Part shown: positions 3,139 to 12,876 of the stretch, piece by piece
Position numbering within the stretch: the first letter of the stretch is position 1
Layout of the letters: every line of letters starts with the position of its first letter
DNA from: a virus
Lineage: Duplodnaviria > Heunggongvirae > Uroviricota > Caudoviricetes
Reading direction: 5' to 3' (one strand)
Virus record (IMG/VR): IMGVR_UViG_3300029080_000085
DNA length: 14,244 bases
The notes under the pieces: generated by a model
What the model was told of the DNA's origin: nothing
Seen by the model: only the letters and a program-made list of their open reading frames with translations
Database searches by the model: none
Program-made: the position numbers and the translations under genes

Positions 3139-3257
3139 GTCTTTTTCCCTTCTGGTTAACATGACATACCAATAACTCTTGTCTAAAAAGCCAGCAAGAT
3201 AAACAGTCAGTATTCACGACCACCAGCGTGTTTACCGTACTGCACCAATGTTTAATT

Positions 3258-3281
3258 TATAAAAAAACCGCGAGAACGCGG
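3258..3281 (-). terminator. Intrinsic terminator downstream of the 176-aa moron ORF
   Basis: Perfect stem CCGCG-AGAA-CGCGG (3268-3281) followed on the minus strand by a 7-nt U-run (complement of A-run 3261-3267). Confidence 0.6.
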
Positions 3282-3319
3282 TAAGTATTGTTAAAAAACC
3301 AACAGTAATTTCACTCAAC

Positions 3320-3850
3320 TTATTTAATACATTCTTTTGCTTGCGCATAATAAATTTTATGAGTATTAGCAAGCTTAACGAAGTTATACTTAACTGCCCC
3401 TAACAGGGTTCCAACTCTTGTATGCCCTTCCATTAAATGGAGCCCTGTTGTATTACTTTTCAGCAAAGCTCGATCTATAAAAAATGGTGGTTCGCACCAT
3501 GTGCCAAAATTACACCAATGCGCTTTTATTTCATCATCCATAAATACATCACCTTTACGGGTCATGTAATCTTCAACGACCTCATGCAAAAAATCAGGGC
3601 AAGTAGCATTATCCCCGATAGTTAAAAAGTTTTTAGTGGGAAGTTCAATCAATTTCCATTCAATTTGGTCAATATCAAGATCCCCATAAAGCTTCTGAAA
3701 TCTGTCATCGCCTACCAATCCATAATAAATCTCCTGAATTACAGGAGAGGGGGCAATGATAGAATATTGCTCACGAAGTATTCTTTCAGCCTCAGGAGCT
3801 TCAAATATGGTTCTTTCTGAGAAAATAGGCAGAAGATCTCGGTATAACAT
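3320..3850 (-). CDS. Hypothetical 176-aa protein; AT-rich moron between Q and the lysis genes
   Basis: Clean ORF, visibly AT-rich relative to flanking phage genes, with its own downstream terminator and a possible SD (GGGG) 6 nt upstream. No family recognised; contains acidic/lysine clusters (GDLDIDQIEWK, GDVFMDDEIK). Confidence 0.6.
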   Translation of the reverse strand: MLYRDLLPIFSERTIFEAPEAERILREQYSIIAPSPVIQEIYYGLVGDDRFQKLYGDLDIDQIEWKLIELPTKNFLTIGDNATCPDFLHEVVEDYMTRKGDVFMDDEIKAHWCNFGTWCEPPFFIDRALLKSNTTGLHLMEGHTRVGTLLGAVKYNFVKLANTHKIYYAQAKECIK

Positions 3851-3882
3851 CCATATCCCCGTGTAAGAAAAAATAATTTAAC

Positions 3883-3902
3883 CCGCTCGGCTGCGGTTTT
3901 TT
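3883..3902. terminator. Terminator-like hairpin in the Q-proximal leader (possible tR'-region element), strand ambiguous
   Basis: CCGC-TCGGCT-GCGG followed by TTTTTT on the plus strand; on the minus strand the same hairpin is followed by GUUAAAUUAUUUUUUU. Only a 4-bp stem. Confidence 0.3.
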
Positions 3903-4004: not shown

Positions 4005-4757
4005 TTATCTTGTCACTTTTCTCAATTGCGCTTCAGCATATGCTTCTTCCTGCCAGCACTTTGTAACCAGTTTATCAATGACGTCTGCATATCCTTTGTA
4101 CCACTGATAATCCGTCAGGTCTGTTACCAGATTCTGGACATGATGCCGCGCCAGTGTGGTTGGTAAACGGCTAAACCGATTTCCATTGCAACGCCCACAA
4201 ATCTTATAAACAGGCGTGCCATGAAGCCGGGTCCTTTTTTCATCCAGGACAATACCTTTACCCTTACACCCTCTGCACGCTGTGCTGACTTCTCCCTTAC
4301 CATGACAATGCTGACATAGTTCCTTCACCCACTCTTCCTTGATAACAGATTCCCCGCTTCTGGAGTGTTTCACCACTTCGCGCAATACATTATGAAATCC
4401 AGTACCAGCACAATGCTCACAGCGAGCCTTACTTGCCGCAGACCTGGAATAATCAGCAAAGGCAAAATTCACAAGGTAAGGAATAATCTGTAGCCGGGTT
4501 TCTTCACTCAATTTATTCAATGTCGGGTTATCCAGTGCCATCGCGTAATTGAGCAGACCTTCAATCGCAAACTGAGGATCCTGAACACCAACTTTTGCCA
4601 GGAATAAGGCAAACCCAAGCGGTGCTTTCGACTGCACCATCCCCTGCGCAGCCATCACATCCGTAATTGTTAAACCACCAGAGCCTGTCGCCGGTGCGTC
4701 ATCGCTCAATTTTGGAGATTTTGGGGAGTAATATTTCGGTAAGGCTTCAAGGTTCAT
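4005..4757 (-). CDS. Q: Late-gene antiterminator Q (lambda Q family)
   Basis: Strong recalled similarity to lambda Q: YYSPKSPKLSD...TDVMAAQGM, FAFADYSRSAASKARCEHCAGTG, CGRCNGNRFSRLP, C-terminal ...KVTR; CxxC zinc-finger pairs. Start at MNLEA (4757) preferred, with SD GGAGAA. Confidence 0.85.
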   Translation of the reverse strand: MNLEALPKYYSPKSPKLSDDAPATGSGGLTITDVMAAQGMVQSKAPLGFALFLAKVGVQDPQFAIEGLLNYAMALDNPTLNKLSEETRLQIIPYLVNFAFADYSRSAASKARCEHCAGTGFHNVLREVVKHSRSGESVIKEEWVKELCQHCHGKGEVSTACRGCKGKGIVLDEKRTRLHGTPVYKICGRCNGNRFSRLPTTLARHHVQNLVTDLTDYQWYKGYADVIDKLVTKCWQEEAYAEAQLRKVTR

Positions 4758-4770
4758 GCTCGTTCTCCAC

Positions 4771-5766
4771 TTACGCCAGTACACCTATTGCCAGCGCACG
4801 ATCGATAAAACGAAATATCAGCTCCAGCTGGGAGCCATACTTCTCTTCAAATGCCACGGTATCCGCATGCAGCTCGTCGTGATGCTTTCTGCACAAAGGC
4901 AACACAAAAAGGTCATGCGCTTTTGTTCCCATTCCACCCTGACCGTGACCTATCAGGTGGTGGGGATCATCAGCGGGCTTTCCACAACATGCACACGGCT
5001 GTGTCTTAACCCAGCGCGTGTACTTTTCATTAACCCAGCGGCGACGTTTTGGGCGTAACATAAAAGACTCCGGCGACTCCGGATCCACTTTCAGCGCCAG
5101 CACCTTTTTCGCCTTATCCTGGATGATGCTGGTGGCAGGAACCGAAGGCACAAGGTCACTTTCCCGGGTGACAGACGGCACAACAGGCTTCGGTAATCTC
5201 AGTGCCTTACGGGCTGCACTTTCCGGTAAGGCGTCCGCCAGGTCATTACGAATCAGCCACCAGCACAGTTCCGGCATTGTCACAACGTGACTGTCATCAA
5301 AACCGAGATCCCGACGCACAACAGACAACACCCAGCGGGCACAGTTATCCGTTGCCATTGATTCCAGCCGTTCCGTGAACTGATCGCGCAGCTGGTTATC
5401 GCAGTGCCAGCACAGACGGATTGCGCCCGGAGCGTGTCGCATTGTTGTCATGTTCTCGCTGTGCCAGTCGGAATGAAGCCACTGGCAGCCTTTTTCACGA
5501 AGTAACCAGCTTTCAAGACATTCCACGCCACCAGCACGACGGATCACTGCCTCATTGCGGAACACGGCCCGAACGGCAGGATCATCCGCCAGCGGTTGTG
5601 ATGCCGCGGGAACGGCACCACTGGCGAAAGATGAATAACGTTCCGGCTCAGGCTCCAGCAGGACACGCCCCTGCATAAACAAGGGCATCAGCTCTGAACC
5701 TGGCCTGAACAATACGATCCCCATACGCGGGGCAATTTCAGGGGTCAGTAGTGCTCTCACGGTCAC
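4771..5766 (-). CDS. DUF968-like (YdfU-like) protein with C-terminal HNH-like Cys/His motif
   Basis: 331-aa ORF; C-terminal CACCGKPADDPHHLIGHGQGGMGTKAHDLFVLPLCRKHHDELH; position just upstream of Q as in Qin (ydfU-quuQ). Likely GTG start, 1 nt after the upstream stop. Confidence 0.65.
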   Translation of the reverse strand: MTVRALLTPEIAPRMGIVLFRPGSELMPLFMQGRVLLEPEPERYSSFASGAVPAASQPLADDPAVRAVFRNEAVIRRAGGVECLESWLLREKGCQWLHSDWHSENMTTMRHAPGAIRLCWHCDNQLRDQFTERLESMATDNCARWVLSVVRRDLGFDDSHVVTMPELCWWLIRNDLADALPESAARKALRLPKPVVPSVTRESDLVPSVPATSIIQDKAKKVLALKVDPESPESFMLRPKRRRWVNEKYTRWVKTQPCACCGKPADDPHHLIGHGQGGMGTKAHDLFVLPLCRKHHDELHADTVAFEEKYGSQLELIFRFIDRALAIGVLA

Positions 5767-6986: not shown

Positions 6987-7253
6987 ACTTTCAGGCCCCT
7001 CTCATGTAACCAGTGGGTTGCACGCAGCCTTGCGTTTTCCTCACCGGCAAGCAGTGAGCGGATAATCCCGACCGCCTCGCTGTCGTCGTCCTTCACCGCG
7101 GTATGAAGCGTGATGCCCCGGGCCACGCCACGCTTTATCGTGATGACGCCTTTTTTCTCCAGTGCGCGAAGATGCTCCACCGCTGCATTCACTGAACGGT
7201 ACAGGAAGCGCAATCAGTTGCGAGCGACGGTAGTGTGTTGTTAAACTGTTCAT
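6983..7253 (-). pseudogene. Frameshifted/truncated LexA-like winged-helix DNA-binding gene; possible deletion scar at the expected replication-module position
   Basis: ATG 7253 overlaps the CII-like stop (ATGA) and encodes MNSLTTHYRRSQLIA...; a second frame beginning after a TGA encodes LRFLYRSVNAAVEHLRALEKKGVITIKRGVARGITL, matching the LexA helix 3 and wing, and ends ATGA-coupled to rusA. No single frame spans both parts. Confidence 0.35.
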
Positions 7254-7813
7254 GCGTTAGTTTCTCCACAGTCACGACACGCCACGGCGCCCGGAGCTGC
7301 ACACTCGCGGGCGTCATTACTTTCTGAAATGCAAAAAATTTTGTAGACCAGTGCTGCATGCTCCTGCAGCTTCGAAATTGAGAGGTACAACTCGTCGTTA
7401 ATTGCTGTCTTCTCATGCGGTTCCACTACACCGTCTTCAATTGCTGAACGAATCTGTTTTGAATAACTGCCGATCTGTTCAATGACCTCCAGCAGGCGTT
7501 GGTTGATATCGGCGTTGTCCACATCCTCGACGTCAGGAAGAGACACAAAGACGCCATTTGCAGACTGCGCCACAGCATCAGCAATGAAGTGAGTGCCACC
7601 AGCACGCTGTAAAACCATTGCCCATCCCAGCGGGAAAATCTGATCGCCATCTGCACGAAGGCGGTTGAATAAAGCGTTTTCTGTTACATCGAGCCAGTCA
7701 GCCGCTTCAGCGTAACCACCCGGCAACGCCGCGATAGTTTTTCTGACAGCTTTCACGTACCACTCAGGCTGTTTTTCTATTTTCCAGTGATGCTTACCCA
7801 CGATTAGCCTCAT
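7250..7813 (-). CDS. CII-like regulatory protein (YdaT / phage 186 CII-like family)
   Basis: 187-aa ORF directly downstream of the cro-like gene; central region (LFNRLRADGDQIFPLGWAMVLQRAGGTHFIADAVAQ) resembles 186-CII-type regulators as recalled. C-terminal tail may be extended by rearrangement. Confidence 0.5.
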   Translation of the reverse strand: MRLIVGKHHWKIEKQPEWYVKAVRKTIAALPGGYAEAADWLDVTENALFNRLRADGDQIFPLGWAMVLQRAGGTHFIADAVAQSANGVFVSLPDVEDVDNADINQRLLEVIEQIGSYSKQIRSAIEDGVVEPHEKTAINDELYLSISKLQEHAALVYKIFCISESNDARECAAPGAVACRDCGETNA

Positions 7814-8135: not shown

Positions 8136-8810
8136 ATGAAAACAATCCATGACATCCGGCGGTCTAACGCCAGAAAACTGAGAGATGGTGTTGGCGGGAA
8201 TTCTTCCTTTGCCACTATGATTGATCGCGAGCCAACCCAGACCAGCAGGTTTATGGGAGATGGTGCTACTAAAAATATCGGTGACAGCATGGCACGACAC
8301 ATCGAAAAATGTTTCGACCTGCCTGTCGGATGGCTCGATCAAGAACACCAGACAACGAACATCACAAAAAAACCTGATGTTTCAATCACTAATAAACAAA
8401 TCACATTAGTCCCTGTCATATCATGGGTACAGGCCGGAGCATGGAAAGAAGTTGGATATTCTGAGGTTGATTTGAGCACAGCAGAAACGTATCCCTGCCC
8501 TGTACCCTGTGGGGAAATGACTTATATCTTGCGGGTGATAGGTGATTCAATGATTGATGAGTACCGCCCGGGAGACATGATTTTTGTCGATCCTGAAGTA
8601 CCTGCCTGCCACGGTGACGACGTTATTGCATTGATGCACGATACAGGTGAAACCACCTTCAAAAGGTTGATAGAAGATGGGACACAGCGTTATCTCAAAG
8701 CGTTAAACCCAAACTGGCCTGAGCCTTACATTAAGATCAACGGTAATTGCTCTATAATTGGTACAGTGATTTTCTCAGGAAAACCAAGAAGATACAAAAT
8801 CAAAGCCTAA
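8136..8810 (+). CDS. cI: CI-like prophage repressor with C-terminal LexA-type S24 peptidase domain
   Basis: 224-aa ORF; C-terminal S24 signature (VIGDSMIDEYRPGDMIFVD ... FKRL) with Ser/Lys dyad context and candidate cleavage site QAG-AW; N-terminal DNA-binding region; no SD upstream. Confidence 0.85.
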   Translation: MKTIHDIRRSNARKLRDGVGGNSSFATMIDREPTQTSRFMGDGATKNIGDSMARHIEKCFDLPVGWLDQEHQTTNITKKPDVSITNKQITLVPVISWVQAGAWKEVGYSEVDLSTAETYPCPVPCGEMTYILRVIGDSMIDEYRPGDMIFVDPEVPACHGDDVIALMHDTGETTFKRLIEDGTQRYLKALNPNWPEPYIKINGNCSIIGTVIFSGKPRRYKIKA

Positions 8811-8822
8811 TCAATGTTTATG

Positions 8823-8846
8823 AACCTGCTTCGGCAGGTTTTTTTA
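8823..8846 (+). terminator. Intrinsic terminator after cI
   Basis: ACCTGC-TTCG-GCAGGT hairpin followed by TTTTTTT. Confidence 0.6.
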
Positions 8847-8849
8847 TAC

Positions 8850-8893
8850 TTGACAATGTACCTTTGAGATACATAATGTACCCAAGCGAAACA
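8850..8893 (+). promoter_or_regulatory. pL-like promoter with overlapping operator half-sites (OL-like)
   Basis: TTGACA (8850-8855), 16-nt spacer, CATAAT (8872-8877); operator-like TGTACCTTTGAGATACA (8857-8873) inside the spacer and a weaker TGTAC-N7-AAACA at 8877-8893. Confidence 0.5.
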
Positions 8894-8966
8894 ACGAACA
8901 GGCAGGACGCCCACGAAGTAGCCGCCTGGGGCATATGAAGTCCAGGATGATTCGTTAGCAACAAAA

Positions 8967-9000
8967 AAGCGCCCTACAGGACGCTTAGCTCTTTAACAAT
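8967..9000 (+). promoter_or_regulatory. nut-like antitermination element: hairpin plus boxA-like sequence in the pL leader
   Basis: GCTCTTTAACAAT (8988-9000) matches the rrn-type boxA core (TGCTCTTTAACAAT as recalled); preceded by hairpin AAGCG-N10-CGCTT (8967-8986). Confidence 0.45.
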
Positions 9001-9044
9001 CTGGTCCCCATCAACAAGTAACTGATAACTTGAGGAGATGTGAA

Positions 9045-9251
9045 ATGCACAAAACAGAACCCAAAATCGTCGCGCCTGGCTACACAGATGAGGAAATTTA
9101 TGAGTGGATGACAAAGAAGCTGGCAGCTATAAACCAGCTTCGTGAAGTGCTGTCTTATCGACAGGAAACAATAGACTCCTTAAAAAAACTGGATCAGGAA
9201 ATCACGGTTTTATCACAGGATGTTACTTTAGATATTGTGCAGACAAATTAG
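9045..9251 (+). CDS. Hypothetical 68-aa acidic protein, first ORF of the pL-like transcript (not N-like)
   Basis: SD GAGGAG 6 nt upstream of ATG 9045; predicted helical/coiled segment (LAAINQLREVLSYRQETIDSLKKLDQEITVL); lacks an arginine-rich motif. Confidence 0.45.
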   Translation: MHKTEPKIVAPGYTDEEIYEWMTKKLAAINQLREVLSYRQETIDSLKKLDQEITVLSQDVTLDIVQTN

Positions 9252-9657
9252 GATCCCATTCATTTTCGTCAAAATCATCAAAGTGATGAATTTGTGATCT
9301 CCAGTCTCGATAATCTAAAAATTTCTGGGCGGTTACGCTTATTTTATCAAGTGTGAGTTCATCCTGAATTGAAAGAAGAAGTTCATCAAATTTCATCTCA
9401 TTAATCTGTTTTGGCATCCAGTGATGCTTCATCAGAATAAGGTGAACCAGAGCCTTTTTCCCATTCAACTGATTATAGGGAGTGCCGAATTTCTTCCGGT
9501 GCTCATGTAAGACAAGGTCCAAAAGAGTAAGTAATGTTGCCCTTGATTCAACTTTGCTTATTTCGACTGATGACACTACCCCACTGATTTCAATGCCCCG
9601 ATACTTTCCAACATTTTCACAGTGGGATTTGTACAGCGTATAGATATTACCGGACAT
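9223..9657 (-). CDS. Hypothetical 144-aa protein; AT-rich accessory gene antisense to the pL operon
   Basis: SD AAGGA 7 nt upstream of ATG 9657; visibly AT-rich; His-rich segments (LVLHEHRKK, MKHHWMP, RDWRSQIHH); 3' end overlaps the convergent 68-aa ORF by 29 bp. No family recognised. Confidence 0.6.
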   Translation of the reverse strand: MSGNIYTLYKSHCENVGKYRGIEISGVVSSVEISKVESRATLLTLLDLVLHEHRKKFGTPYNQLNGKKALVHLILMKHHWMPKQINEMKFDELLLSIQDELTLDKISVTAQKFLDYRDWRSQIHHFDDFDENEWDPNLSAQYLK

Positions 9658-9672
9658 TTCTTTTCCTTTTGC

Positions 9673-9721
9673 GTTGTTGGGGATAACCAGATTAACCGAA
9701 TCCTTGTTGTTGGGGAATAAC
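9673..9721. repeat. Two direct repeats GTTGTTGGGGA(A)TAAC upstream of the 144-aa gene
   Basis: Copies at 9673-9687 and 9706-9721, 33 bp apart start to start; on the minus strand they read GTTAT(T)CCCCAACAAC, resembling a DnaA-box-like TTATCCCCA. Confidence 0.4.
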
Positions 9722-9943
9722 TAGGTCCACCTCGCCTGATGTGGCTAAAAGCAGGCACATAACAGCTAAGTATTTTCAACCAGAGAGAATCCTTAGCGTT
9801 GTGGTGAATGCGGCTCAGCGCACGCGGGTTAAGGTTGAGGCTGACAGTCGACCTTCTGTGGATACCCACCCGCCTGGTGTGCAACCTTCGCCAGGCACCG
9901 GGAGGCACCCGGCACCACAACTTTATGCTGTGTGTAGTCTTGG

Positions 9944-9988
9944 CGGTACCAGCTTGTACCCTTGCTTCCGGCTGGTACCGTCCTTTTT
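9944..9988 (+). terminator. Strong hairpin with U-tract inside the GC-rich block (candidate tL-type terminator)
   Basis: Perfect 10-bp stem CGGTACCAGC / GCTGGTACCG (9944-9953 / 9971-9980), 17-nt loop, followed by TCCTTTTTA. Confidence 0.45.
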
Positions 9989-10201
9989 ACAAAACAGAGA
10001 AGAGCATCACCGGACGACGGGCTCATAACCCAATCCATCCGGGCGGCTGCCACCGCAGGTGTTCTTCTCTGTTTTGTGGAGAAACTAACCGCCCCTACGG
10101 GGGCATTTATGGAAATGTAATTGACTCAATAATCGCCGGACGGTGAGGGCTTCCTTTTACCGGAATTCAGCGCGGTGCAGCGCATATACGTGGAGAACAA
10201 A

Positions 10202-12800: not shown

Positions 12801-12876
12801 TGGTGCCGATAATAGGAGTCGAACCTACGACCTTCGCATTACGAATGCGCTGCTCTACCAACTGAGCTATATCGGC
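12801..12876 (-). tRNA. thrW: tRNA-Thr (anticodon CGU), thrW-type; prophage attachment site
   Basis: Reverse complement is GCCGATATAGCTCAGTTGGTAGAGCAGCGCATTCGTAATGCGAAGGTCGTAGGTTCGACTCCTATTATCGGCACCA: cloverleaf-compatible, anticodon loop ATTCGTAAT, encoded CCA end. Confidence 0.9.

What the first reader, a model, noticed from the sequence alone, without database searches (positions are those of the whole stretch)
9223..9721. AT-rich 144-aa gene antisense to the pL operon, next to the immunity region, with paired upstream direct repeats
This ORF lies where lambda carries rexAB/sieB-type exclusion genes, but is oriented against the early-left transcript, so it would be expressed mainly in the lysogen when pL is repressed. 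It is visibly AT-rich compared with neighbouring phage genes, has a good RBS, shows no recognisable domain, and is preceded by two 15-16 bp direct repeats (DnaA-box-like) spaced 33 bp apart. That is the profile of a horizontally acquired lysogen-expressed accessory or defence gene.
Basis: partly seen in the sequence, partly recalled or inferred. Interest (0 to 1): 0.7.

Follow-up and report, generated by a model that had tools for sequence, protein, structure and literature searches.

The report
Antisense prophage accessory gene with partner
The 144-codon gene is a real, catalogued but uncharacterised prophage "moron" (ECs1072 family) inserted backwards into the early-left operon of an SfIV-like E. 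coli prophage. It usually travels tail-to-tail with a small YdfC-like gene, so it is a good but unproven candidate for a lysogen-expressed function that is switched off when the phage goes lytic.

Summary
ORF 9223-9657 (-) encodes 144 aa, is AT-rich (GC 0.38 vs 0.48), has a good Shine-Dalgarno sequence, lies antisense to pL (8850-8877 +) next to cI, and is preceded by two 33-nt-spaced repeats.

The protein is not an orphan. It matches NCBIfam NF033230 (ECs1072 family) and PHROG 5286, and is 100% identical to Shigella phage SfIV orf36. It is a soluble all-alpha protein (AF2 pLDDT 91) with no match in Pfam, PADLOC, PDB or BFVD.

Family members always lie antisense inside prophage lytic operons: next to the repressor, between Q and the lysis genes, or in a P2-like early operon. 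The ST64B member is STMMW_20121, published as transcribed from its own promoter in lysogens.

New here: in 8 of 10 contexts, and 77 of 80 viral contigs, the gene converges on and overlaps a small YdfC-like gene.

The repeats are not gene-specific and are not convincing DnaA boxes. They belong to a conserved flank that also precedes an unrelated antisense gene in a sister prophage. The slot holds at least five alternative cargos.

A defence role remains untested.

The parts
9223..9657 (-). CDS, 144 aa, ECs1072-family (NF033230 / phrog_5286) soluble all-alpha protein
9658..9672 (-). 5' UTR with Shine-Dalgarno AAGGA (9664-9668), 6 nt before the ATG. This stretch is cargo-specific: homology to the sister prophage L011 resumes only at 9673.
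9673..9687 (.). Proximal direct repeat GTTGTTGGGGATAAC. On the gene strand it reads AATCTGGTTATCCCCAACAAC. It marks the right boundary of the exchangeable segment.
9706..9721 (.). Distal direct repeat GTTGTTGGGGAATAAC, 33 nt from the first. It lies in flank DNA shared with L011, L001 and L003.
8998..9018 (.). Inverted, degenerate copy of the repeat motif (AATCTGGTCCCCATCAACAAG) at the left boundary of the exchangeable segment, upstream of the partner gene
   Evidence: (I3/I4)
9045..9251 (+). CDS, 68 aa, YdfC-family / phrog_1744 small acidic coiled-coil protein in the pL direction. It is convergent with the 144-aa gene and overlaps its 3' end by 29 bp.
9116..9141 (-). Terminator-like hairpin plus T-rich tail for the minus strand, about 80 nt past the stop codon and inside the partner gene. 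Conserved in L003. Likely 3' end of the ECs1072 mRNA (inferred).
8850..8877 (+). pL promoter (TTGACA-16-CATAAT) with flanking operator repeats
   Evidence: (D1)
8967..8999 (+). Hairpin (8967-8986) followed by rrn-type boxA GCTCTTTAACAA (8988-8999) in the pL leader. On the minus strand the same hairpin is followed by a T-run, making it a second antisense terminator.
9768..9991 (+). STnc100/PasD-like prophage sRNA element, conserved flank downstream of the slot

Best explanation
Shown by sequence comparison: the 144-aa ORF is a genuine accessory ('moron') gene of the ECs1072/PHROG-5286 family. It sits in a variable slot directly downstream of cI/pL in an SfIV-like prophage at thrW-proA. It is half of a recurrent convergent pair. 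A small YdfC-like coiled-coil gene is read with the lytic operon and runs tail-to-tail into the larger gene, which is read against the operon.

Shown only for the ST64B homologue: the larger gene is transcribed from its own promoter in the lysogen.

Inferred for this locus: the soluble all-alpha protein is made while pL is repressed. When pL, or pR'/Pe in the other slots, fires, head-on transcription through the 3' overlap lowers expression of the 144-aa gene and raises the YdfC-like partner. The partner acts as its cognate modulator or inhibitor.

Most likely role (inference, untested): a lysogen-benefit effector, probably superinfection interference or abortive infection, whose activity must be turned off for the prophage's own lytic growth.

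The upstream repeats are not part of the protein's mechanism. They belong to the conserved slot boundary or expression platform that is shared by different cargo genes.
For: 1. Family membership and reality of the gene.

2. Antisense placement in every context examined:
- repressor-proximal early-left operon: window, SfIV, L003, L004, L007, L018, L020;
- Q-to-lysis slot: ST64B, L005/6 and most of 81 IMG/VR loci;
- P2-like early operon: L021.

3. Published lysogen transcription. The ST64B ORF is a full-length member (hhalign 99.9%, E 4.5e-36). It is STMMW_20121 by identical geometry: 435 bp, 162 bp from the holin, 71-bp overlap with the next gene. That gene is reported as transcribed from its own TSS in almost all conditions (PMC7067206). 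ECs1072 itself is on a Sakai microarray list of growth-phase-regulated genes (PMC2241611).

4. The partner. A convergent, 3'-overlapping YdfC-like ORF is present in 8 of 10 distinct contexts and in 77 of 80 IMG/VR loci. Early-slot and late-slot partners are related: BLASTP E 8e-5 and hhalign 83%, E 8.9e-6.

5. Reciprocal expression trend in ST64B Table S5. STMMW_20121 goes from 269 TPM (InSPI2) to 113/105 on peroxide/NO shock. The partner goes from 108 to 148/258 and the holin from 16 to 33/32. In late stationary phase the values are 4.9 versus 101.

6. Variable slot with unrelated cargo.

7. A precedent for life-cycle-coupled antisense gene pairs is Tha/Ith (PMC11087260).
Against: - No phenotype data exist for any family member.
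- There is no PADLOC, Pfam, PDB or BFVD similarity to any known defence effector.
- No consensus promoter was found upstream of this copy.
- The partner family is broader than the ECs1072 family. Nineteen phages carry ydfC-like genes in dicB-type operons without an ECs1072 gene, so early-slot co-occurrence could partly be positional.
- Two contexts (L002, L007) lack a partner, and the L003 partner has a frameshifted C-terminus.
- Co-divergence of the two proteins is only borderline (Mantel r 0.46, p 0.059).
- In ST64B lysogens both genes are expressed, so expression is not strictly mutually exclusive.
- The expression evidence comes from a homologue with about 27-32% identity in a different slot.
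- The 77/80 IMG/VR count is highly redundant.
Confidence: 0.4

Rival explanations
1. Toxin-antitoxin-like or addiction module. Both proteins are made in the lysogen. One is growth-inhibitory and the other neutralises it, stabilising the prophage or triggering abortive infection when the balance is disturbed. Convergent 3'-overlapping transcripts tune the ratio.
For: In ST64B lysogens both genes are expressed at similar levels from a region that is otherwise silent. The 3' overlap of 29-113 bp is conserved. Both proteins are small and soluble. The pair occupies three different operon types.
Against: No similarity to any TA family in Pfam, NCBIfam or PADLOC. In the window the partner lies directly behind repressed pL with no evident promoter of its own. 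Family members exist without a partner. The partner family exists widely without the larger gene.
Confidence: 0.2
2. Prophage-intrinsic regulator. The antisense transcription unit, and possibly its protein, dampens leaky read-through of pL, pR' or Pe in the lysogen, or times early/late expression after induction. It benefits the phage's own lysis-lysogeny control rather than host defence.
For: The gene is always embedded antisense in regulatory-proximal parts of lytic operons: just after pL/boxA, just after Q, and just after Cox. Two minus-strand terminators insulate cI/pL from the antisense transcript. Owen et al. class STMMW_20121 as 'accessory or regulatory'.
Against: Sister prophages with the same repressor, pL and downstream genes lack the gene or carry unrelated cargo, so it is dispensable for that regulatory circuit. 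The protein is under purifying selection and has a conserved fold, so the product matters and not only the act of transcription. No DNA-binding fold was detected.
Confidence: 0.15
3. Stand-alone moron that alters host physiology or fitness (stress tolerance, virulence, metabolism), unrelated to phages. The YdfC-like neighbour is only positional.
For: Antisense, AT-rich, variable presence, and expressed under nearly all infection-relevant conditions in Salmonella. In L005/6 the neighbour on the same strand is a universal-stress-protein gene. Partner-less copies exist.
Against: The partner recurs outside early-left operons, where YdfC-like genes are not otherwise expected (ST64B, L005, P2-like L021). 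The protein has no signal peptide and no TM segment, and no similarity to known effectors.
Confidence: 0.15
4. One reading: the paired repeats are DnaA boxes that regulate the gene or titrate DnaA.
For: The proximal repeat contains TTATCCCCA, 8/9 to TTATCCACA. Related copies read ATATCCACA, one at the left slot boundary in L011 and one upstream of the gene in L002.
Against: The distal copy (TATTCCCCA) does not fit the box, and the mismatch in the proximal copy is at a core position. The L011 and L002 versions form a 10-bp palindrome, TGGATATCCA, which is more typical of a dimeric regulator site or a recombination boundary. The motif brackets the swapped segment in inverted orientation. It is absent upstream of most family members.
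Confidence: 0.03

Closest known systems
STMMW_20121 locus of Salmonella prophage ST64B (Owen et al. 2020, PMC7067206)
   Same: Same protein family (hhalign 99.9%). Same length (144 aa), antisense to lytic genes, and convergent with and overlapping a small YdfC-like gene (sb50/STMMW_20131). Published own TSS and lysogen expression.
   Different: About 27-32% identity. It lies in the Q-to-holin slot rather than next to cI. It has no upstream repeats. Its function is equally unknown.
Tha/Ith of Staphylococcus aureus prophages (Rostol et al. 2024, PMC11087260)
   Same: A lysogeny-side gene and a small gene on the opposite strand with overlapping transcription, next to the immunity region. Expression of the two is coupled to the lysogeny/lysis switch.
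   Different: Tha is a HEPN RNase in the cI operon, and Ith is the antisense gene with its own promoter. Here the larger protein is the antisense one, has no HEPN motif or fold, and neither protein is related to Tha or Ith. Function and inhibition are untested here.
Lambda RexAB / SieB and P22 SieA/SieB exclusion genes
   Same: Immunity-proximal, lysogen-expressed, and dispensable for phage growth (established knowledge).
   Different: RexAB are co-transcribed with cI, and RexB and SieB are membrane proteins. The 144-aa protein has no TM segment and no sequence or profile similarity.
BstA/aba of Salmonella prophage BTP1 (PMC8585504)
   Same: A repressor-adjacent, lysogen-expressed defence with built-in self-immunity for the carrying prophage. 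This is a conceptual parallel, taken from the abstract.
   Different: BstA is about 300 aa and its self-immunity is a DNA element. There is no homology (PADLOC negative).
YdfC of the Qin prophage dicBF operon (ydfABC-dicF-dicB)
   Same: The 68-aa partner is about 40% identical to phage YdfC-family proteins (E 2e-9). It has the same position after the repressor, and an sRNA gene follows it: DicF there, STnc100/PasD-like here.
   Different: In dicB-type operons there is no ECs1072-family gene converging on ydfC. YdfC function is unknown.
e14 ymfJ/ymfI and the 171-aa gene of APEC E123 (same slot)
   Same: They occupy the same slot between the same cI (ymfK type) and the same downstream DNA, and also have a minus-strand gene. 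ymfJ/ymfI are again a convergent overlapping pair.
   Different: The proteins are unrelated.

Membership tests
NCBIfam NF033230 'ECs1072 family phage-associated protein' / PHROG 5286 | Full-length match to the family HMM above the curated cutoff (70 bits) | tested here: met
   157.8 bits, residues 4-144 on model positions 2-142. phrog_5286 E 1.5e-90 over 1-144. All 55 aligned relatives hit phrog_5286.
Prophage moron / accessory locus | Variable presence between conserved phage modules | tested here: met
   Same cI and same downstream DNA with unrelated or no cargo in L011, L012, L013, L015-L017.
Prophage moron / accessory locus | Deviant base composition | tested here: met
   GC 0.379 against 0.483 for the window.
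Prophage moron / accessory locus | Own promoter and terminator, transcribed in the lysogen | tested here: inconclusive
   Minus-strand terminator-like hairpins at 9141-9116 and 8986-8967, but no minus-strand sigma-70 consensus. A TSS and 60-270 TPM are shown only for the ST64B homologue. ECs1072 appears on a microarray list.
Known anti-phage defence systems (PADLOC-DB 2.0) | Match to a defence-protein HMM | tested here: not met
   No hit for the protein, its partner or any of 55 relatives.
Known anti-phage defence systems | Protection phenotype against phage challenge | not testable with these tools
   Needs plaque or EOP assays. No report was found in the literature searches.
Tha/Ith-type antisense defence-inhibitor pair | HEPN (Rx4-6H) RNase effector | tested here: not met
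Tha/Ith-type antisense defence-inhibitor pair | Small overlapping gene on the opposite strand next to the immunity region | tested here: met
   The 68-aa gene at 9045-9251 (+) overlaps 9223-9251. The arrangement recurs in other contexts.
Tha/Ith-type antisense defence-inhibitor pair | Small protein inhibits the larger one | not testable with these tools
Needs co-expression or binding assays.
Type III toxin-antitoxin (ToxIN-like) | Tandem repeat RNA antitoxin, then a terminator, then an endoRNase toxin of Kid/MazF-like fold | tested here: not met
   Only two imperfect 33-nt units, with no terminator between the repeats and the ATG. The repeats are shared with unrelated cargo and absent from most relatives. 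The fold is all-alpha.
Lambda RexA/RexB, SieB | Sequence family match; membrane topology for RexB and SieB | tested here: not met
   No Pfam or PADLOC match. The maximum 19-residue hydropathy is 0.84, so no TM segment.
HD / HDOD phosphohydrolase superfamily (weak fold lead) | H...HD...D metal-binding motif and significant structural match | tested here: not met
DnaA box (TTATCCACA / TTWTNCACA) | Match of both repeats to the box | tested here: not met
   The proximal copy TTATCCCCA differs from the box at a core position. The distal copy TATTCCCCA does not fit. Binding is not testable here.
YdfC family (partner gene) | Sequence similarity to annotated YdfC proteins over the full length | tested here: met
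   39-41% identity over residues 1-66, E 2e-9 to 3e-9, to ydfC genes of 19 phages. phrog_1744 E 7.8e-35.
Rfam RF02076 STnc100 (neighbouring element) | Score at or above the gathering threshold (47 bits) | tested here: inconclusive
   43.4 bits, E 9.5e-7, full model 1-206 at 9768-9991 (+).

The most novel reading that the evidence does not exclude
The ECs1072-family protein and its convergent YdfC-like partner form a previously unrecognised two-gene prophage immunity module found in at least Escherichia, Shigella, Salmonella and Klebsiella phages. The effector has a new all-alpha fold and is made in the lysogen. The small partner is encoded in the lytic operon and provides self-immunity. Head-on overlapping transcription flips the balance at induction. 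This would be a Gram-negative analogue of Tha/Ith built from unrelated proteins, and it would also give the first function for the YdfC family.
Probability: 0.25. Interest if true: 0.75.

Novelty: new member of a known kind. Interest (0 to 1): 0.5.

Why it matters
Prophage morons next to the immunity region have repeatedly turned out to be defence or exclusion systems, for example Rex, SieB, BstA, GiPD474 and Tha.

This family has about 76 clusters at 50% identity and occurs in hundreds of E. coli genomes, in the serotype-converting Shigella phage SfIV and in Salmonella ST64B. It is transcribed in lysogens in the one case where that was measured. Its predicted fold has no counterpart in the PDB or BFVD searches run here.

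The recurrent tail-to-tail pairing with a YdfC-like gene gives a concrete hypothesis that can be tested cheaply. It also suggests a role for YdfC, an uncharacterised gene of the well-studied dicBF operon.

The slot itself has conserved boundary repeats and at least five alternative cargos, three of them antisense. It is a compact natural system for studying how cargo is exchanged in lambdoid prophages.

Tried and rejected
1. Pfam, PADLOC and a profile search of PDB sequences gave nothing for the protein, for the 55-member alignment, or for the alternative cargos.

4. HEPN was rejected: no Rx4-6H motif.

5. The type III TA reading of the repeats was rejected (see the membership table).

6. The DnaA-box reading was rejected as unsupported.

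7. Literature:
- Gifsy-1 STM14_3218-3220 and GiPD474, both immunity-region cargos, were checked and are different proteins.
- 'ECs1072' appears in only one paper, in a microarray table.
- The accession WP_000016389 appears in none, and is not in the DefensePredictor supplements.

8. The search for related loci with the broad alignments failed because no stretch was conserved enough. Single-protein scans worked only for the ST64B type.

9. YmfJ, YmfI and the 171-aa protein were tested for homology to the pair and are unrelated.

10. The consensus promoter scan found no minus-strand promoter upstream of the gene. Manual inspection found none either.

11. A co-divergence (Mantel) test of the two proteins was only borderline (p 0.059).
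Full report
**Where the window comes from.** The 701 bases around the finding are 100% identical to many E. coli chromosomes. In RefSeq the ORF is annotated 'ECs1072 family phage-associated protein'. It lies inside a lambdoid prophage that ends with xis/int, tRNA-Thr and proA (tRNA at 12804-12876). The protein is 100% identical to orf36 of the serotype-converting Shigella phage SfIV.

The regulatory layout is clear:
- a CII-like gene at 7250-7813 (-), and cro on the minus strand;
- an S24-type repressor at 8136-8810 (+) with its terminator at 8822-8841;
- an 11/12 sigma-70 match at 8850-8877 (+), embedded in TGTACC-type operator repeats that also occur between cro and cI.

Everything from there to int is on the plus strand.

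**The observation.** All elements are present:
- the ORF 9223-9657 (-), with an ATG start;
- AAGGA 6 nt upstream of the ATG;
- GC of 0.379 against 0.483 for the window;
- GTTGTTGGGGA at 9673 and 9706, so the period is 33 nt and the similarity spans about 28 nt.

The repeat alone is weak statistically, because 12% of shuffled windows have a comparable close 11-mer repeat. It is, however, conserved in relatives.

The ORF is a real gene. dN/dS is 0.23 against an E. albertii allele. An exhaustive profile search finds 76 clusters at 50% identity, all about 145-155 aa. AlphaFold2 with a 55-sequence alignment gives an all-alpha model with pLDDT 91.1 and pTM 0.84. The protein is soluble and mildly acidic, with no TM segment.

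**What the protein is.** It has no Pfam domain but is not an orphan. It scores 157.8 bits against NCBIfam NF033230 and E 1.5e-90 against PHROG 5286, both of unknown function. The following searches gave nothing:
- PADLOC, for the protein or any relative;
- a profile search of PDB sequences;
- Foldseek against BFVD.

The most conserved positions in the 55-sequence alignment are R54 (preceded by H or Y at 53), L64, G66, A69, H72 and the invariant W134. Among closer relatives R39, W80, F126, D128 and P136 are also conserved. There is no HEPN motif and no HD motif.

**Genomic behaviour of the family.** Every context I could read puts the gene on the strand opposite to the surrounding lytic operon. 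There are three kinds of place:
- between the repressor and the early-left genes: window, SfIV, L003, L004, L007, L018, L020;
- between the Q antiterminator and the lysis cassette: L005/6 and ST64B, plus most of 81 IMG/VR loci, where Q and/or lysis homologues lie on the opposite strand within 3 kb;
- inside the early operon of a P2-like prophage, L021/22.

The ST64B copy is unannotated in AY055382 but is a full-length member (hhalign 99.9%, E 4.5e-36). Its geometry matches STMMW_20121 of S. Typhimurium D23580 exactly: 435 bp, 162 bp from the holin, and a 71-bp overlap with the next gene. Owen et al. 2020 single this gene out as transcribed from its own promoter in almost all conditions and as a candidate accessory or regulatory gene (PMC7067206). 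Their Table S5 gives 60-270 TPM in 16 of 17 conditions, against less than 40 for the flanking lysis genes and less than 8 for the upstream genes. This is the only direct expression evidence for the family. For ECs1072 itself there is one microarray listing.

**The slot.** Sister prophages with the same repressor and the same downstream DNA carry different things between pL and the conserved STnc100-like region:
- the ECs1072 pair;
- an unrelated 171-aa minus-strand gene (APEC E123, L011);
- the unrelated convergent pair ymfJ/ymfI (e14 of K-12, L013);
- a 91-aa plus-strand gene, alone or with a ClpX-zinc-finger gene (L015-L017);
- nothing (L012).

None of these is related to the ECs1072 family or to a known defence protein.

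blastn breakpoints show that L011 shares window 8400-9004 and 9673-10102. The exchanged segment is therefore 9005-9672, which is the YdfC-like gene plus the 144-aa gene with its own RBS. The paired repeats (9673-9722) lie in the shared flank and precede the unrelated 171-aa gene as well.

The exchanged segment is bracketed by inverted copies of one motif, AATCTGG(A/T)TATCC(A/C)CAACA. In L011 both copies are nearly perfect, and the left one contains the full palindrome TGGATATCCA. In the window the left copy (8998-9018) is degenerate. The e14 and O157 variants break at 8956/8959 and 9727 and lack the repeats.

Against the E. albertii prophage, the ORF is 77.6% identical (dS 0.75) while the 5' UTR, the repeats and the flanks are 92-100% identical. 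So alleles of the gene are swapped inside a conserved frame.

I therefore read the repeats as slot-boundary or shared expression-platform sequence, not as part of this gene and not as DnaA boxes. In the proximal copy the single mismatch to the DnaA box falls at a core position, and the distal copy does not fit. The motif is absent upstream of most family members.

**The partner.** This is the main new point. The 144-aa gene converges on, and overlaps by 29 bp, a 68-aa gene at 9045-9251 (+) (phrog_1744). A related small ORF has the motif EPxI...TxEE(I/L)xEW(M/L) followed by a coiled coil. It lies in the same convergent, 3'-overlapping arrangement (29-113 bp) in these contexts:
- L003, where its C-terminus is frameshifted;
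- L004 and L018/19;
- the P2-like L021;
- the late-slot loci L005 and ST64B (sb50).

L020 also carries one, but separated from the family gene by a longer partner-like ORF.

It is missing in L002 and L007. Early-slot and late-slot partners are detectably homologous: BLASTP E 8e-5 and hhalign 83%, E 8.9e-6. Among 80 IMG/VR loci with ST64B-type genes, 77 have a partner-HMM hit in the convergent position, although these loci are highly redundant.

The partner is a YdfC-family protein, about 40% identical to phage ydfC genes (E 2e-9). YdfC-like genes also occur without any ECs1072 gene in repressor-proximal ydfC-dicB-type early operons of 19 phages. The partner family is therefore broader, and early-slot adjacency could be partly positional. 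The recurrence in late operons and in a P2-like operon argues for real linkage. A Mantel test of co-divergence is borderline (r 0.46, p 0.059).

**Mechanism.**
- Shown: antisense placement, variable slot, purifying selection, a minus-strand terminator-like hairpin 80 nt past the stop codon inside the partner gene (9141-9116), and a second one at 8986-8967 that insulates pL/cI.
- Shown for a homologue only: own TSS and lysogen expression.
- Inferred: the protein is made while the lytic operon is silent. Firing of pL, pR' or Pe transcribes the partner head-on into the gene, lowering its expression and raising the partner.

ST64B Table S5 shows a trend in this direction. From InSPI2 to peroxide/NO shock, the conditions in which ST64B lytic genes rise, STMMW_20121 falls from 269 to 113/105 TPM. 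The partner rises from 108 to 148/258 and the holin from 16 to 33/32. In late stationary phase the values are 4.9 against 101. However, both genes are expressed in lysogens there. That fits the late-slot partner being the first gene after Q, in the position where lambda's late promoter sits, a promoter known to be constitutive (established lambda biology).

The closest mechanistic precedent is Tha/Ith in S. aureus prophages. There a defence gene and a small opposite-strand inhibitor gene form a life-cycle switch (PMC11087260). The proteins are unrelated, and the polarity is reversed: in that system the small inhibitor is the antisense gene.

I commit to a lysogen-expressed effector with a lytic-operon-encoded modulator, most likely acting in superinfection interference, at confidence 0.4. 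A TA-like module (0.2), a prophage-intrinsic regulator (0.15) and a stand-alone host-fitness moron (0.15) are not excluded.

**Novelty and verdict.** The gene belongs to a catalogued uncharacterised family, and one member was already flagged as a candidate accessory gene in 2020. I therefore file it as a new member of a known kind, a prophage moron. Three things appear to be new: the cross-slot, always-antisense behaviour; the recurrent convergent pairing with a YdfC-like gene; and the finding that the upstream repeats belong to a shared slot boundary. Its accessory-gene reading is supported, its defence reading is untested, and its DnaA-box and 'gene-specific repeats' details are not supported. 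Interest is 0.5.

Noticed in passing
window 9768-9991 (+): Sub-threshold but significant Rfam match to the prophage sRNA STnc100 (43.4 bits, gathering score 47, E 9.5e-7, full model). A 2026 preprint relates STnc100 to PasD. The element is conserved across all slot variants. It overlaps ORFs that RefSeq annotates as 'frameshifted hypothetical protein' or ymfH, which are therefore probably not genes. Its position after a YdfC-like gene parallels dicF after ydfC in Qin-type operons.
   Followed up: partly
window 8967-8999 (+): The pL leader carries a hairpin followed by a perfect rrn-type boxA (GCTCTTTAACAA; 0.07 expected by chance with up to one mismatch). This is the hairpin-then-boxA order of rrn antitermination leaders. 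No N-like arginine-rich protein is encoded downstream. On the minus strand the same hairpin reads as an intrinsic terminator.
   Followed up: partly
window 10090-10105: Relative to SfIV and many E. coli prophages, the window lacks about 1.3 kb carrying yfdP-yfdQ. The two homology blocks overlap by 12 nt (10091-10102) inside a GC-rich hairpin, which suggests deletion between two copies of that hairpin.
   Followed up: partly
window 3150-3900; ORF 3320-3850 (-): This is a second markedly AT-rich stretch (GC 0.37-0.39). It holds a 176-aa ORF with no Pfam match, directly downstream of the Q antiterminator (4005-4784, PF03589). That is the other classic moron slot, where ST64B-type phages carry their ECs1072-family gene. 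Here the ORF is on the same strand as the late operon.
   Followed up: partly
L013 (E. coli K-12 e14) 886-1473; L011 (APEC E123) 926-1441: The same slot in e14 holds ymfJ (+) and ymfI (-), another convergent pair with a 63-bp 3' overlap. In APEC E123 it holds a 171-aa minus-strand coiled-coil-like protein driven by the same repeat-containing flank. Three unrelated minus-strand cargos in one slot suggest a general hotspot for antisense cargo genes.
   Followed up: partly
L004 4756-4832 (-): In a divergent prophage the space between the family gene and the next early-left gene holds a tRNA-Arg(TCT) gene in the pL direction. Nearby is a GACTACACAC motif that also occurs in the window's STnc100-like region and in L007.
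   Followed up: partly
L020 4233-4805 (-) and 4849-5070 (-): One prophage carries two partner-like genes in tandem: a 73-aa YdfC-like gene, and a 190-aa protein whose C-terminal part has the same LTxxxLIxWL motif. The longer one overlaps the family gene by about 227 bp.
   Followed up: no
L005/L006 6935-7372 (+): In the Q-to-lysis slot of this prophage, a universal-stress-protein (Usp) gene lies on the same strand as the ECs1072-family gene. Both are antisense to the late operon, so the slot can hold several antisense cargo genes.
   Followed up: no
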